NCBI GenBank assembly: GCA_964479695.1
Contig: CAYZSO010000003.1
Span: 60,567 to 92,566, forward strand
DNA from: an uncultured Fastidiosipila sp.
Lineage (GTDB): Bacteria > Bacillota > Clostridia > Saccharofermentanales > Fastidiosipilaceae
DNA: 32,000 bases
Reading direction: 5' to 3'
Each line of letters opens with the position of its first letter. The stretch's first letter is position 1. A program made the translations under genes and the position numbers. The notes beneath the pieces were generated by a model that saw only the letters and a list, made by a program, of their open reading frames with translations, made no database searches and had not been told where the DNA came from. Positions 4,193 through 29,940 of this stretch are shown piece after piece.

Positions 4193-4756
4193 ATGACACG
4201 AAGTAATCCGGAAAATAATTCCAAAAGAAATATCCTCATTGTTATTGATATGCAAAACGACTTTGTGAGCGGCAGTTTGGGCACAGCAGAAGCACAGGCG
4301 ATTGTGCCTCGCGTGGTTTCGGAAATTGGTGGTGCTTATTCAGAGGTCCTTTACACGCAGGACACGCATGAAAAAGACTATTTGACAACGGAAGAAGGCA
4401 AACACTTACCTGTGATCCACTGCCAAAATGGGACAGAAGGCTGGGCGATCGAAAGTGGGGTGGGGGTGGCTTTGGCCGAGAGAAAAGCCAAGGGATTTAC
4501 GAAACCGACCTTCGGCTCACTTGACTTGGCGGAAGAACTTGTCCGAATGAACCAGGAAAAGCCGCTGGATCAGCTGACCTTCATTGGCCTCTGCACTGAT
4601 ATCTGTGTGATTTCGAATGCACTTGTGGCGAAGGCACACCTGCCGAATCTCCCGATACGCGTGATTGCTGACTGCTGTGCGGGTGTGACTCCGGAGAGCC
4701 ACGAAACGGCGCTAAGGGCGATGGAAGCGTGCCAAATTGAGATTATCCGAGAGTGA
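4193..4756 (+). CDS. pncA: isochorismatase-fold cysteine hydrolase, nicotinamidase-like
   Basis: VIDMQNDF (catalytic Asp), QDTHEKD...LPVIHC (metal-site-like) and GLCTDICV (catalytic Cys). SD AAGGAG. Confidence 0.7.
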   Translation: MTRSNPENNSKRNILIVIDMQNDFVSGSLGTAEAQAIVPRVVSEIGGAYSEVLYTQDTHEKDYLTTEEGKHLPVIHCQNGTEGWAIESGVGVALAERKAKGFTKPTFGSLDLAEELVRMNQEKPLDQLTFIGLCTDICVISNALVAKAHLPNLPIRVIADCCAGVTPESHETALRAMEACQIEIIRE

Positions 4757-4795
4757 AAATAGAGTTAAATAATAGAGTTAAAAAATAGAGTCAAT
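4757..4795. repeat. ATAGAGTTA x3 degenerate tandem repeat directly after the stop codon
   Basis: atagagtta at 4759-4767 and 4772-4780, atagagtca at 4785-4793. The gene end GAGAGTGAAAA resembles the unit. Confidence 0.75.
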
Positions 4796-4954
4796 ATAAT
4801 TACCGTGGGGTGCCTGCGATGTGCAAAGTCAAGGTTAACTCTTAACCTTAGTTTAACCTTCTTCTAACATTCAGAGCGGTGTAGTTTAGTACACTAGAAG
4901 AGAGTTTTCTGCTGAGGCAGCCCGTGTGTTACACGAGGCAAACAGGGAGGAACC

Positions 4955-6685
4955 ATGGGAGAAACGAGGAGACTGACAAGGAGAGACGATCGAGGCGTGG
5001 GAGACGCAAGGATTTCATTTCAGAACGGACTTCGAAAATTTCATCTATTTCAGAAAGGGAAGAAGGGTTTGGGACTTGTTGCGATGGTCCTTGCACTGAC
5101 ACTCTTTCTTGCAGCTTGTGGCAACGGGACTACAACGGATTCACAAGCGGATAAGGTATTCCCGGGGCAGCGGGCACAAAGTACGATAAGAATTGTGTCC
5201 GGGTCGGAGAACCGGGTATTGGAACCAATTATTGAAGAATTTACCAAGAAAAATCCGGTGACCATCGAAATGACCTATATGGGGTCTCTCGAGATTATGC
5301 GTTTGCTTCAGGGCGACCAAATTCCATATGATGCGGTCTGGCCGGCTTCCAGTTTATGGGTTTCGGTAGGTGATGAGGCCCACCGGGTCAAGCACCTGGA
5401 ATCGACATCAACAACGCCTGTCATCTTCGGTATCAAAGAGAGTGTGGCCGAACGTCTGGGGTTTATTGGCCGAGATGTGTATGTGCGTGACCTACTGACA
5501 GCAATCCAGAATAAAGAACTGACGTTTACAATGACTTCCGCGACCCAGTCCAATTCCGGCGCGAGTGCGTATATCGGCTTCATCTATGCCCTGCTGGGCT
5601 CGCCTGAACAAATTACGCTTGAAGCGCTCCATGACCAGAATTTCCAAGAAGAAATGCGCAATTTACTAGCCGGTGTAGAACGTTCTTCCGGCAGCTCTGA
5701 TTGGCTGAAGGATCTCTACTTGCAAGGCGATTATGATGCGATGGTGAATTATGAAGCTTTGATTATTTCCGCGAATCAGGAACTTGAGCGTGAGAATCGG
5801 GAAGTGATGCATGCAATCTACCCGGTGGACGGCATGATGATGGCGAATTCGCCCTTGGGTTTCGTGTCGTCGAATGGGGAGTCGGGCAGAGATGAGCAGA
5901 AACAGGAAGAAGCTTTCCTCCGTTTCCAGGAATATCTCCTGAGCACAGAGGTGCAAGATCAAATTCAGCGAACCGGCCGACGGACTGGTGTGGGGAATGT
6001 CGATCCTAAGAATAGTGACGTGTTCCGCACGGATTGGGGGATCGATACCGGTCGAGTGATTTCCACAATTAATATGCCGAAACAAGATGTCTTGTTTGAG
6101 GCTTTGAATCTCTATCAATCTTCGTTCAAGAAGCCCGGCTTGAACGTCTATGTGCTTGATTTTTCGGGCTCGATGCAGGGACAAGGGCGCGAGCAATTGG
6201 TGCAGGCTTTGGGCGAAATTATGATTAGCGAGAACGCGGCAAAGAATTTCCTGCAAGCGTCTGACACGGAGAAAAACGTCTTCATTCCCTTTAACAGTCA
6301 ATCGTACACACCGGAGGCTGTGACCGGTGGCGGCGCGGCGCTGGAAGCGCTCTACCAGGATCTGTCCAAAATCCCGGCGAGCGGCGGGACGGCTCTCTAT
6401 GAGGCGGTCTTGGATGCGCTGGCCTATATTCAAGGTGAAGATCTGAATTACTATTCACCGTCTATCATTATTATGTCCGATGGGCAGCCCAATGGCGCGA
6501 TGAGTTTCCGCGATCTGGAGACCCGCTATCAGGAGATGAAGTTGGATATTCCTATTTTCTCTATCTTGTTTGGCTCGGCGGATGAAAGCCAGATGGACCA
6601 GATTGCCGAGCTTTCGCGAGCGCGGGTTTTCGACGGCCGCGAAGATTTGACTGCTGCATTCCGCAGCGTCAGAGGGTATAACTGA
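4955..6685 (+). CDS. lipoprotein with solute-binding-like N-domain and C-terminal von Willebrand A (MIDAS) domain
   Basis: Lipobox LFLAAC-GNG. The vWA MIDAS residues are DFSGS, GGTALYEA and IIMSDGQPNG. SD GGGAGG. Confidence 0.85.
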   Translation: MGETRRLTRRDDRGVGDARISFQNGLRKFHLFQKGKKGLGLVAMVLALTLFLAACGNGTTTDSQADKVFPGQRAQSTIRIVSGSENRVLEPIIEEFTKKNPVTIEMTYMGSLEIMRLLQGDQIPYDAVWPASSLWVSVGDEAHRVKHLESTSTTPVIFGIKESVAERLGFIGRDVYVRDLLTAIQNKELTFTMTSATQSNSGASAYIGFIYALLGSPEQITLEALHDQNFQEEMRNLLAGVERSSGSSDWLKDLYLQGDYDAMVNYEALIISANQELERENREVMHAIYPVDGMMMANSPLGFVSSNGESGRDEQKQEEAFLRFQEYLLSTEVQDQIQRTGRRTGVGNVDPKNSDVFRTDWGIDTGRVISTINMPKQDVLFEALNLYQSSFKKPGLNVYVLDFSGSMQGQGREQLVQALGEIMISENAAKNFLQASDTEKNVFIPFNSQSYTPEAVTGGGAALEALYQDLSKIPASGGTALYEAVLDALAYIQGEDLNYYSPSIIIMSDGQPNGAMSFRDLETRYQEMKLDIPIFSILFGSADESQMDQIAELSRARVFDGREDLTAAFRSVRGYN

Positions 6686-28491: not shown

Positions 28492-28520
28492 TTGCGGCGA
28501 CGTTACGTAAACGGTAAAGT
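28492..28520 (+). promoter_or_regulatory. candidate sigma-A promoter of gdhA
   Basis: TTGCGG (28492-28497), 17-nt spacer containing the palindrome TTACGTAA, then TAAAGT (28515-28520). Confidence 0.35.
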
Positions 28521-28544
28521 AAGACTCATCAGGAGGTACTAACT

Positions 28545-29891
28545 ATGTTGACGAATGCATATGCAGAGAGAGTTTTGGCGGATACTCGTGCGCGAAGATA
28601 CTGGGAGCCGGAATTTCTTCAGGCTGTCGAAGAAGTCTTGTCAACCTTGGGACCGGTGTTAGACAAACATCCGGAATATGAGGAGGTTGGCTTGCTGGAG
28701 CGACTGCTGGAGCCGGAGAGAGTGATTGCGTTTCGCGTCACTTGGGAAGATGAATCCGGCAAGGTCCAGGTGAACCGCGGCTACCGAATCCAGTTCAACG
28801 GCGCGATTGGTCCCTATAAAGGCGGCTTGCGCTTCCATCCGACTGTGAATGAATCCGTTCTGAAATTCTTGGCTTTTGAACAGACCTTCAAGAATTCTCT
28901 GACCGGCCTTCCCATGGGCGGCGCGAAGGGCGGCTCCGATTTCGATCCCAAAGGCAAAACTGACCGTGAAGTGATGCGCTTCTGCCGCTCGTTTATGGCT
29001 GAACTAAGCAAACATATTGGCCAATTTACGGATGTGCCGGCCGGCGATATCGGGGTTGGCGGTCGCGAAATCGGGTACATGTTCGGCCAATATCGCCGGC
29101 AGAACAATGAACACACCGGTGTGCTGACGGGCAAGGGCTTGTCTTTTGGCGGTTCTTTGGCCAGAACAGAAGCAACCGGCTACGGAGCCTGCTATTTTGC
29201 CAAAGAAATGCTCGCTGACAAAGGCACTTCTTTTGAAGGCAAAAATGTCGTGATTTCCGGCTCCGGTAATGTGGCTGTCTATGCCGCTGAAAAGGCAACG
29301 GAACTGGGCGGCAAGGTACTGACTTTGTCCGATTCTGATGGCTTCGTCCTTGATAAAAACGGAATTGATGTTGAATTGGTCAAAGAAATCAAATTCAAGA
29401 AGCGCGGCCGCATCAGTGAATATTTGACTTCCCATCCGGAAGCAGAATATTTTGCCGGCAAACGCCCCTGGAGTGTCCCTTGCGACATCGCCATGGCTTG
29501 CGCAACTCAGAATGAACTGGACCTGGCCGACGCGAAGACGCTTGTCGCAAATGGCTGCAAGTTTGTTGTGGAAGGTGCGAACATGCCAACTTCCCTGGAA
29601 GCGACTGAGTATTTCCTCGAAAATGGCGTGTATTTTGCTCCCGGCAAAGCGGCTAACGCAGGCGGCGTAGCGGTCTCCGGTTTGGAGATGAGCCAGAATG
29701 CGATGCATTTACCGAGCTCATTTGAAGAAGTTGACCGGAAGTTAGGTGAGATTATGGTTTCCATTTTCCGCAATGCAAAAGAAGCGGCTGCGGAATACAG
29801 TGACAACAAAGATAATCTCGTCGCCGGAGCGAACATCGCAGGCTTCTTAAAAGTAGCTGATGCCATGATTGCCCAAGGCTTGGCATTCTAA
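28545..29891 (+). CDS. gdhA: NADP-specific glutamate dehydrogenase
   Basis: [27 protein letters not shown] and GSGNVA dinucleotide site. 448 aa. SD AGGAGG. Confidence 0.95.
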
Positions 29892-29940
29892 TCGTTATTG
29901 TTTCGTTTCGTTCCGTTCCCCCGTTTCGTCCCGTTCCCCG
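29892..29940. repeat. graded pentamer-like tract TTTCG, TTCCG, TTCCC directly after the gdhA stop
   Basis: tcgttattgtttcgtttcgttccgttcccccgtttcgtcccgttccccgg. CCGTTCCC at 29913 and 29931. Confidence 0.7.

What the first reader, a model, noticed from the sequence alone, without database searches (positions are those of the whole stretch)
4744..29940. Stop-codon-proximal 'echo' repeats: gene 3' ends followed by degenerate tandem copies of themselves
At several convergent or operon-internal gene ends, the last few nucleotides plus the stop codon are followed by 2-4 degenerate tandem copies. Examples: 4757-4795 (ATAGAGTTA x3 after ..GAGAGTGAAAA); 8372-8460 (GAATAAGAATT recurs); 12115-12173 (TGAAGACC including the TGA recurs at 12134); 14286-14361 (19-mer x4 including TAA). 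Weaker cases are at 22189-22227 and 29892-29940. The units are rich in TAA/TGA/TAG in several frames. Repeats this regular in nearly every spacer are unusual for a bacterial chromosome. They suggest a specific slippage or template-switch process, or a function such as back-up stops, ribosome release, or RNA 3'-end protection.
Basis: seen in the sequence. Interest (0 to 1): 0.6.

Follow-up and report, generated by a model that had tools for sequence, protein, structure and literature searches.

The report
Runaway short tandem duplications between genes
The repeated "echoes" after stop codons are real, but they are the visible edge of a genome-wide habit of this uncultured Clostridia bacterium: it duplicates 6-40-base stretches head-to-tail everywhere, and the copies survive mainly where they do no harm, which is chiefly just after genes.

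Summary
Observation confirmed. TRF finds all six cited arrays. Three of them (8372, 12114, 14286) really repeat the gene's last bases plus the stop codon.

The feature is genome-wide:
- Short-period arrays cover 12.8% of intergenic bases against 2.6% of coding bases.
- They cover 27% of the 60 nt after stops against 16% of the 60 nt before starts.
- 227 of 2116 genes have an array spanning the stop codon.

The arrays are not specific to stop codons:
- They also sit in 53-59% of divergent (promoter-only) spacers.
- They also occur inside genes. There, 551 of 564 have a period divisible by 3, against about one third in spacers.

No back-up-stop signal was found. Periods of stop-spanning arrays are spread 77/77/73 over the three frames, and in-frame extra stops are not favoured over out-of-frame ones.

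Relatives hold a single copy of the same gene ends. A 96.4%-identical strain differs by whole units, and 9 of 13 indels fall in arrays.

Array density falls with phylogenetic distance: 11-16% of non-ORF DNA here, 7-10% in two same-genus species, and 0.4-3% in other genera.

Best reading: an elevated rate of slippage-type tandem duplication, filtered by selection. The closest analogue is the tandem repeats of Borg elements. The cause is unknown, because the canonical slippage suppressors are intact.

The scan has noted stop-abutting arrays in other genomes. Those are a different class (7-9-nt hairpin pairs), which was tested here and not met.

The parts
8372..8459 (+). Echo array of about 4 units of 18-20 nt. 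The first unit begins with the last codon GAA and the TAA stop of gene 7295-8377. It ends about 20 nt before the TelA start at 8479.
   Evidence: TRF and sequence. Relatives G001/L054, G003, G018 and L089 have a single GAATAA followed by a 19-28-nt spacer with an RBS. Strain L052 has one more unit (+18 nt at 8386).
14286..14358 (-). Echo array of four 19-nt units. The first (rightmost) unit is the last 16 nt of the [FeFe]-hydrogenase gene plus its TAA (14343-14345). The three downstream copies each carry TAA in a shifted frame.
   Evidence: TRF (score 118-139) and sequence. Strain L052 has only 2 units (-38 nt). G001 has one copy of the homologous gene end.
14231..14267 (-). Intrinsic-terminator-like hairpin (15 pairs plus a T run) downstream of the hydrogenase echo array. 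The array therefore lies in the 3' UTR, between stop and terminator.
12114..12168 (+). Degenerate array of AGACC-type units (sub-period 7, period 19) that contains the TGA stop (12115-12117) of gene 11248-12117. A strong promoter-like site follows at 12180-12207.
   Evidence: TRF, sequence, promoter. It is strongly diverged and 12 nt longer in strain L052, while the adjacent promoter region is nearly identical.
4758..4800 (+). Array of period 13 with 3.2 copies. It starts 2 nt after the TGA stop (4754-4756) of the isochorismatase-family gene and does not copy the gene end.
   Evidence: TRF, sequence. It is diverged in strain L052.
22202..22226 (+). Weak array (period 10, 2.5 copies, score 36) in the convergent spacer between the stops at 22179 and 22257. 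The units begin with TGA, TAG or TAA.
   Evidence: TRF, sequence
29904..29939 (+). Array of period 18 with 2 copies, 13 nt after the stop of gene 28545-29891. A hairpin-plus-T-run terminator-like sequence follows at about 29965-30000.
   Evidence: TRF, sequence
2518..2662 (+). C/A-rich arrays (units of 10, 7 and 14 nt) upstream of the SatD-family gene start. This is the same kind of array on the 5' side of a gene.
   Evidence: TRF. Strain L052 has 110 nt more (insertions of 58 and 52 nt).
170..330 (+). Graded G/T-rich arrays (units of 8, 5 and 9 nt) upstream of tRNA-Ser (383-474).
   Evidence: TRF, tRNA
11046..11221 (.). Two arrays in a divergent spacer: period 11 with 5.7 copies, and period 12 with 2.5 copies.
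   Evidence: TRF. Strain L052 differs by -11 and +12 nt, one unit each.
9638..9673 (-). In-frame coding array (period 18, 2 copies) near the C-terminal end of the DEAD-box helicase gene.
   Evidence: TRF. Strain L052 has +27 nt here, in frame.
25365..25428 (-). In-frame coding array (period 24, 2.7 copies, 97% match) in gene 24880-25599.
   Evidence: TRF
26340..26376 (-). In-frame coding array (period 18, 2.1 copies, perfect) near the 3' end of the LigB-family gene.
   Evidence: TRF, Pfam
18859..18906 (.). Array of period 25 with 2 copies in a divergent spacer.
   Evidence: TRF
25735..25775 (.). Perfect 20-nt duplication in a spacer, an example of a young event.
   Evidence: TRF

Best explanation
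The echoes are neutral by-products of an unusually active short tandem-duplication process in this species. The most likely mechanism is replication slippage or out-of-register realignment between short direct repeats. Existing arrays then gain and lose units by further slippage.

Segments of about 6-40 nt are duplicated head-to-tail all over the chromosome, and selection decides what stays.
- In genes, only in-frame units survive, mostly near the protein ends.
- Next to start codons and promoters few survive.
- Between a stop codon and the terminator or next promoter almost anything is tolerated.

A duplication that spans the stop codon leaves the protein untouched, because the first copy still ends the gene. 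The gene's last bases plus stop therefore end up followed by decaying copies of themselves.

Shown here: local origin, the frame filter, strain-level unit gain and loss, the excess over relatives, and the lack of any in-frame stop signal. Inferred: slippage as the molecular step, and a raised mutation rate as the reason for the excess.
For: (1) Genome-wide distribution. Arrays cover 17.7% of intergenic bases against 2.7% of coding bases. For period <=40 the figures are 12.8% against 2.6%.

(2) Frame filter. Of coding arrays with score >=50, 551 of 564 have a period divisible by 3. Intergenic arrays split 341/301/260. Among perfect young duplications, 270 of 306 in genes are in frame, against 199 of 541 in spacers.

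(3) Position follows expected constraint. Coverage is 23% in convergent, 19-21% in co-directional and 15% in divergent spacers. Within co-directional spacers it falls from 0.25-0.28 near the stop to 0.08 next to the start. The array edge shows a broad plateau from -18 to +20 around the stop, with no spike at it.

(4) Local origin. At two sites, relatives have a single copy of the conserved gene end that is multiplied here. Units are locus-specific, with sharing close to a shuffled control (296 against 206 linked pairs).

(5) Ongoing turnover. Against a 96.4%-identical strain, 9 of 13 indels lie in arrays, which make up 4% of aligned positions (p=2e-10). These nine indels measure 3-58 nt, and at least four equal whole units. 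Substitutions run at 7.1% in arrays against 3.6% in other spacer sequence.

(6) Lineage excess in both old and young events. Arrays with score >=50 number 56.5 per 100 kb, against 4-18 in relatives and 0.7 after shuffling. Array share outside ORFs is 11-16% here, 10% and 6.9% in two same-genus species, 1.7-3.1% in other genera and 0.4% in another family. Perfect duplications number 36.6 per 100 kb (28 in the strain), against 1-16 in relatives and 1.8 after shuffling. Coding arrays are also 2-10 times commoner than in relatives.

(7) Microhomology. Perfect two-copy duplications extend a mean of 3.6 nt beyond two copies, against about 0.7 expected. This fits microhomology at the junctions.
Against: No enzymatic cause was found. 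The following are all present and full-length:
- Pol I with its 5'-nuclease domain, MutS, MutS2 and MutL.
- RecJ, ExoVII and RNase HII.
- PolC, with intact exonuclease motifs.
- Y-family polymerases.
Ku was not found in G000 or in most relatives.

A higher birth rate and longer persistence of arrays (weak selection or weak deletion bias) are not cleanly separated.

The microhomology figure is inflated by perfect pairs that sit inside older arrays.

The 1.7-fold excess after stops could be partly mutational, for example replication-transcription conflicts at gene ends, rather than purely due to selection.

Gene calls come from my own crude caller (2116 genes, 81% coding), so start positions are approximate. 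The conclusions held when every gene was extended to its most upstream start.

Relatives were sampled at only 20-100 kb each.
Confidence: 0.75

Rival explanations
1. The arrays are selected 3'-UTR elements. They would act as back-up stop codons in several frames, as ribosome-release or spacing elements between stop and terminator, or as protection of RNA 3' ends.
For: Arrays are densest at +20 to +50 after stops (20-22% coverage). They lie between stop and terminator at the hydrogenase gene. Stop trinucleotides are somewhat enriched on the sense strand of post-stop arrays, at 6.1% against 5.0% in non-array spacer and 3.4% antisense. In 167 of 227 stop-spanning arrays a stop recurs one period downstream.
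Against: Periods of stop-spanning arrays are uniform modulo 3 (77/77/73). A further in-frame stop within 12 codons is no commoner than out-of-frame ones (0.51 against 0.55/0.55). The same kind of array fills 53-59% of divergent spacers and occurs in frame inside genes. Arrays are absent at the same sites in relatives and vary in copy number. Between strains they evolve twice as fast as other spacer sequence. Units share no motif.
Confidence: 0.07
2. The mutation rate is ordinary, but this species keeps slightly harmful insertions. A small effective population size or weak deletion bias would let arrays accumulate and spacers grow.
For: With the same simple gene caller, coding density is lower here (84-86%) than in relatives (87-91%). 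The genome (2.77 Mb) is larger than the family relatives searched (1.2-2.6 Mb). Most arrays are old and degenerate (median 88% match).
Against: Young, perfect duplications are also 2-30 times more frequent than in relatives. Unit gains and losses have happened since a 3.6% strain divergence at 9 of about 15 arrays compared. The frame filter in genes is very strict (98%), which does not suggest weak selection.
Confidence: 0.15
3. The arrays belong to the known or previously scanned classes of intergenic word repeats. These include STRR and heptamer long simple repeats, Beggiatoa TAACTGA repeats, and 'tandem-word hairpins' linked to PF05635 intervening-sequence cassettes. On this reading they are spread or maintained by a dedicated element.
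For: The arrays are intergenic and abut stop and start codons, as in those classes (PMC4679880, PMC4692102).
Against: No dominant period exists. The mode is 9-12 nt with a tail to 40, and 7-mers are a minority. No shared motif was found. Inverted partner arrays do not exceed controls: 49 of 1042, against 81 and 19. The window holds no inverted array pairs. PF05635 was not found in the genome, which is 93.9% complete.
Confidence: 0.03

Closest known systems
Tandem repeats of Borg extrachromosomal elements of Methanoperedens (PMC9879509)
   Same: The arrays are pervasive and locus-specific in both spacers and genes. Genic units are divisible by three while intergenic ones mostly are not. [quoted passage not shown] They evolve fast with unit-number variation, and they are rare in related genomes.
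   Different: Borg repeats are perfect and A-rich and sit on a giant archaeal extrachromosomal element. Here the copies are mostly degenerate (median 88% match; 19% of arrays perfect) and not A-rich on the sense strand (A 25.7%). They lie on a bacterial chromosome, and sister species show an intermediate density.
Genome instability of the whitefly endosymbiont Portiera (Bemisia lineage): expanded spacers full of tandem repeats and microsatellites, linked to loss of dnaQ (PMC7821994, which cites Sloan and Moran 2013)
   Same: There is a lineage-specific burst of intergenic tandem repeats and lower coding density, read as a replication or repair peculiarity.
   Different: Portiera is a tiny, repair-poor endosymbiont with rearrangements. 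This is a 2.8-Mb genome of an uncultured bacterium whose proofreading, mismatch-repair and ssDNA-exonuclease genes are intact.
Slipped-strand VNTR / contingency loci of bacteria (established knowledge)
   Same: The copies are head-to-tail, whole units are gained and lost between strains, and the arrays are sensitive to reading frame.
   Different: Contingency loci are a few dozen selected switches in promoters or reading frames of surface genes. Here there are more than 2600 arrays, mostly in positions with no obvious switch function.
Intergenic heptamer repeats: cyanobacterial STRR, Xanthomonas/Nostoc heptamers (PMC4692102), Beggiatoaceae TAACTGA repeats (PMC4679880)
   Same: Both are short tandem units confined largely to spacers. 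The TAACTGA unit also carries stop triplets.
   Different: Those have one or a few genome-wide motifs with a fixed 7-nt period. Here every locus has its own unit, and periods range from 6 to 40 nt.
Tandem (back-up) stop codons downstream of the primary stop (established concept; from my own knowledge)
   Same: Extra stop triplets shortly after the real stop.
   Different: Back-up stops are defined by being in frame. Here no in-frame preference exists.

Membership tests
Slippage-type variable-number tandem repeats | Head-to-tail direct copies of a short unit | tested here: met
   TRF: 2778 merged arrays, of which 2670 have a period <=40.
Slippage-type variable-number tandem repeats | Gain or loss of whole units between closely related strains | tested here: met
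   Against strain L052: +18, -38, -11, +12, +12, +27, +58 and +52 nt at arrays. 9 of 13 indels lie in arrays.
Slippage-type variable-number tandem repeats | Heterogeneity of unit number within one population (reads) | not testable with these tools
Borg-like pervasive tandem repeats | Genic units divisible by three, intergenic units not | tested here: met
   551 of 564 against 341 of 902.
Borg-like pervasive tandem repeats | Units perfectly repeated | tested here: not met
   Median match is 88-89%. 268 of 1386 short-period intergenic arrays are perfect.
Borg-like pervasive tandem repeats | A-enriched units | tested here: not met
   Post-stop arrays on the sense strand have A 0.257, C 0.201, G 0.285, T 0.257. 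Only a modest amino/keto asymmetry is seen.
Borg-like pervasive tandem repeats | Units unique to each locus, arising independently | tested here: met
   Unit sharing is near the shuffled control. Arrays are absent at orthologous sites of relatives.
STRR / heptamer long simple repeats | Dominant 7-nt period with one or a few genome-wide motifs | tested here: not met
   Period histogram; no motif family.
Tandem-word hairpins / PF05635 (IVS-type) cassettes noted elsewhere in this scan | Arrays occur as inverted arm pairs that form hairpins | tested here: not met
   49 of 1042 arrays have a reverse-complement partner within 300 nt, against 81 and 19 in controls. None were found in the window.
Tandem-word hairpins / PF05635 (IVS-type) cassettes noted elsewhere in this scan | Associated PF05635 four-helix-bundle gene in the genome | tested here: not met
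   No match in G000, which is 93.9% complete.
Back-up tandem stop codons | Excess of additional stops in the reading frame of the upstream gene | tested here: not met
   Frame 0 is 0.506, against 0.554 and 0.545 for the other frames. Period modulo 3 is 77/77/73.

The most novel reading that the evidence does not exclude
A free-living or community-dwelling Clostridia lineage (relatives are labelled 'uncultured Fastidiosipila sp.') runs a Borg-like, still active tandem-duplication process on its own chromosome. The process writes new 3'-UTR sequence and new in-frame peptide repeats at many hundreds of loci, although all canonical slippage suppressors are intact. That would point to an unrecognised property of its replisome or of a repair pathway. 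Density is graded across the genus, which could be used to find the responsible gene.
Probability: 0.45. Interest if true: 0.6.

Novelty: new variant of a known kind. Interest (0 to 1): 0.45.

Why it matters
If the rate really is elevated, this genus is a natural bacterial model for how short tandem duplications are born and decay. It would also show how they create new untranslated sequence and new amino-acid repeats. The genus offers a built-in comparative series (high, intermediate and low species) for hunting the cause.

The result is also a caution for annotation and for pattern-hunting. Stop-codon 'echoes', multi-frame stops after genes and repeat-filled spacers can arise with no function at all, simply because duplications that include a stop codon are invisible to selection.

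Tried and rejected
- Back-up stops: tested by period modulo 3 and by in-frame against out-of-frame stops. No signal.
- Shared motif or mobile repeat family: k-mer clustering of 785 units came out near the shuffled control.
- Hairpin-pair ('tandem-word hairpin') class and PF05635: not met.
- Loss of a slippage suppressor: Pol I 5'-nuclease, MutS/MutS2, MutL, RecJ, ExoVII large subunit and RNase HII are all present. PolC is present with intact DxE, NAxFD and HxAxxD motifs.
- End-joining and translesion polymerases: Ku was not found in G000 or most relatives. The Y-family polymerase count is ordinary.
- Rho-utilisation-like C-rich RNA: rejected, because post-stop arrays are G>C on the sense strand.
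- Rfam: only tRNA-Ser was found in the window.
- Assembly artefact: rejected by the independent assemblies.
- Naming the organism: no names were attached to close proteins. One relative at 80% TelA identity is titled 'uncultured Fastidiosipila sp.'.
- Orthologous comparison of the 22202 array: uninformative, because G001 and G004 carry an extra small gene there.

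
Full report
**What the window is**

The window is G000:C3:60567-92566 of a 2.77-Mb, 58-contig, roughly 50% GC genome that is 93.9% complete. The genes are those of an anaerobic Clostridia-type bacterium. They include an [FeFe]-hydrogenase, TelA, DHHW/MBOAT, SerC-SerA and ABC importers. A relative with 80% TelA identity is titled 'uncultured Fastidiosipila sp.' (Clostridia, Oscillospiraceae in NCBI taxonomy).

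**The observation**

TRF finds an array at each of the six cited places.

Reading the sequence shows three true echoes:
- At 8372-8459 the unit begins with the last codon and the TAA of gene 7295-8377.
- At 12114-12168 the array contains the TGA of gene 11248-12117.
- At 14286-14358, on the minus strand, the last 16 nt of the hydrogenase gene plus TAA are followed by three further 19-nt copies. A strong terminator-like hairpin then follows at 14267-14231.

The arrays at 4758, 22202 and 29904 start 2 to 25 nt after the stop and do not copy the gene end.

The window holds 15 arrays with score >=50, where a shuffled genome predicts about 0.2. Twelve of 21 spacers of at least 30 nt carry an array.

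**Genome-wide test**

I laid the genome in the script box, called genes with a simple hexamer-score caller (2116 genes) and ran TRF.

Where the arrays lie:
- They cover 17.7% of intergenic bases and 2.7% of coding bases. Restricted to periods <=40, the figures are 12.8% and 2.6%.
- Coverage peaks at 20-22% between +20 and +50 after stops.
- In the 60 nt after stops it is 27%, against 16% in the 60 nt before starts. By gene, that is 526/1315 against 352/1333 (p=1e-13).

It is only about 1.7-fold, and the arrays are not a stop-codon feature:
- 53-59% of divergent spacers carry one.
- Coverage is 23% in convergent, 19-21% in co-directional and 15% in divergent spacers. These figures are unchanged when every gene is extended to its most upstream start.
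- Within co-directional spacers coverage declines smoothly from the stop side (0.25-0.28) to the start side (0.08).
- The stop-side (upstream) edge of the arrays shows a plateau from about -18 to +20 around the stop, and no spike.

**The key result: a frame filter**

Inside genes there are 564 arrays with score >=50, and 551 have a period divisible by three. In spacers the three residue classes are 341/301/260.

The same holds for perfect, hence young, duplications of 8-40 nt. There are 1014 in the genome, against 49 after shuffling. In genes 270 of 306 are in frame. In spacers 199 of 541 are.

Out-of-frame duplications are about 40-fold rarer per base in genes than in spacers. In-frame ones are only about 3-fold rarer. 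One process therefore acts everywhere, and selection sorts the products.

**Why echoes of stop codons arise**

Across the genome, 227 genes have an array that spans the stop codon and runs on for at least 8 nt. In 167 of these a stop triplet recurs one period downstream.

A tandem duplication of a segment that contains the stop leaves the protein unchanged, because the first copy still terminates it. Such events are as neutral as purely intergenic ones, which fits the plateau of array edges.

Nothing suggests selection for back-up stops:
- Periods of these arrays are 77/77/73 modulo 3.
- A further in-frame stop within 12 codons is found in 0.51 of genes with arrays, against 0.55 and 0.55 for the two other frames. 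Without arrays the figures are 0.46 against 0.48 and 0.48.
- Stop triplets are mildly enriched on the sense strand of post-stop arrays (6.1% against 5.0%), as expected if some units were seeded by a stop.

**Local origin**

- Gene 7295-8377. In four other genomes the gene ends with the same GAATAA, followed by a 19-28-nt spacer with the ribosome-binding site and no array. These are G001 (identical there to locus L054), G003, G018 and L089.
- Hydrogenase gene. In G001 it ends at the homologous position with a single copy.
- No repeat family. Units at different loci are unrelated: 296 linked pairs against 206 for shuffled units.

**Turnover**

A contig from another sample (ENA, XIAW21-1_SAMN10659872 scaffold_56, locus L052) is 96.4% identical over 17.4 kb. 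Of the 13 indels, 9 lie in arrays, which occupy 4% of aligned positions (p=2e-10). Most are whole units:
- +18 nt at 8386.
- -38 nt (two units) at 14294.
- -11 nt and +12 nt in the divergent spacer at 11083 and 11204.
- +12 nt at 12127.
- +27 nt, in frame, in the helicase gene.
- +58 nt and +52 nt in the C/A-rich arrays upstream of the SatD-family gene.

Substitutions are also twice as frequent in arrays (7.1%) as in other spacer sequence (3.6%).

A Logan assembly of a further run is 100% identical to the window over 10.7 kb. The arrays are therefore not artefacts of one assembler.

**Lineage specificity**

Arrays with score >=50 per 100 kb:
- G000: 56.5.
- G001, same genus: 17.
- Other relatives: 4-18.
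- Shuffled sequence: 0.7.

Share of DNA outside ORFs that is array:
- G000: 11-16%. The strain: 15%.
- G001: 10%. G004: 6.9%.
- Three other genera of the family: 1.7-3.1%.
- Another family: 0.4%.

Arrays inside ORFs are also 2-10 times commoner here.

Perfect duplications number 36.6 per 100 kb, against 1-16 in relatives. This argues for more births as well as longer survival.

**Search for a cause**

The usual suppressors of slippage are present and full-length:
- Pol I with its 5'-nuclease domain, MutS, MutS2 and MutL.
- RecJ, ExoVII and RNase HII.
- PolC, with its three exonuclease motifs intact.
- Y-family polymerases in ordinary number.

Ku was not found. No cause was identified.

Perfect two-copy duplications extend a mean of 3.6 nt beyond two copies, where about 0.7 is expected. 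This fits microhomology at the junctions, though the figure is inflated by pairs that sit inside older arrays.

**Comparison with known things**

- Borg elements. The closest published analogue is their tandem repeats (PMC9879509). They show the same split of genic and intergenic unit lengths, arrays that start in ORF ends, unique units and fast change. However, those repeats are perfect and A-rich and lie on an archaeal extrachromosomal element.
- Portiera of Bemisia. It shows expanded, repeat-rich spacers tied to dnaQ loss (PMC7821994). Here proofreading is intact.
- Heptamer classes. The arrays are not the STRR / heptamer / TAACTGA kind, because they have no common period or motif.
- Earlier notes of this scan. 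The scan describes stop-abutting arrays in many other genomes as 7-9-nt 'tandem-word hairpins' linked to PF05635 genes. I tested both features here, and neither holds.

**Verdict**

The functional half is not.

What remains open, and moderately interesting, is why this species duplicates short segments so much more than its relatives do. Its genus shows the same tendency to a lesser degree.

**Limits**

- The gene calls are my own.
- Relatives were sampled at 20-100 kb each.
- Only one 17-kb strain comparison was made.

Noticed in passing
G000:C3:155630-156160 (outside the window); also C30:31073-31556, C10:63005-63462, C52:8883-9336, C40:13048-13483: A dispersed family of long-period tandem repeats (about 71-83 nt per unit, 4-6 copies) shares a core and often lies at contig ends. 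Unlike the short arrays, this is a true multi-locus family. CRISPR was not ruled out.
   Followed up: no
G000:C32:1-1911 and C35:272-3609 (outside the window): CRISPR-like arrays with a 33-nt repeat were picked up by TRF as periods of 133-335 nt. They were excluded from the short-period statistics.
   Followed up: no
L012:7989-8208, L013:3-364, L014:15463-15689, L015:9232-9702 (G001): The sister species G001 has its own dispersed 63-nt-period tandem family at several loci, in both orientations.
   Followed up: no
L087 (G007:C1:608753-615466): The PolC of genus g4 (G007) lacks the three exonuclease motifs that G000, G001 and G020 keep, although the protein is full-length. Its aligned region has no DxE and no HxAxxD. 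G007 is not array-rich, so this does not explain the trait.
   Followed up: partly
window 4088-4116, 4456-4484, 11383-11410, 11765-11792, 28348-28369: A recurrent palindromic motif around GGCTTTGGCCAAAGCC appears inside genes and spacers as inverted pairs and as a hairpin. Another reader also noted it (e1-2504726).
   Followed up: no
L052:3910-4851 versus window 2676-3344: In the other strain the SatD-family gene is called 91 codons longer (313 against 222 aa). The expanded, stop-free C/A-rich array upstream is read through as an N-terminal extension. This may be a gene-caller artefact or a real repeat-encoded extension.
   Followed up: no
window 12180-12207: A near-consensus promoter-like site (ATGACA, 16 nt, TATAAT) lies directly after the 12114-12168 array. 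It is almost invariant between strains, while the array next to it has diverged strongly.
   Followed up: partly
L066/L069 (G002:C65, spacer between the amylase and hydrogenase homologues): G002 has a much longer spacer at this convergent site, with its own 33-nt unit repeated three times. This shows independent array formation at the same site in another species of the genus.
   Followed up: no
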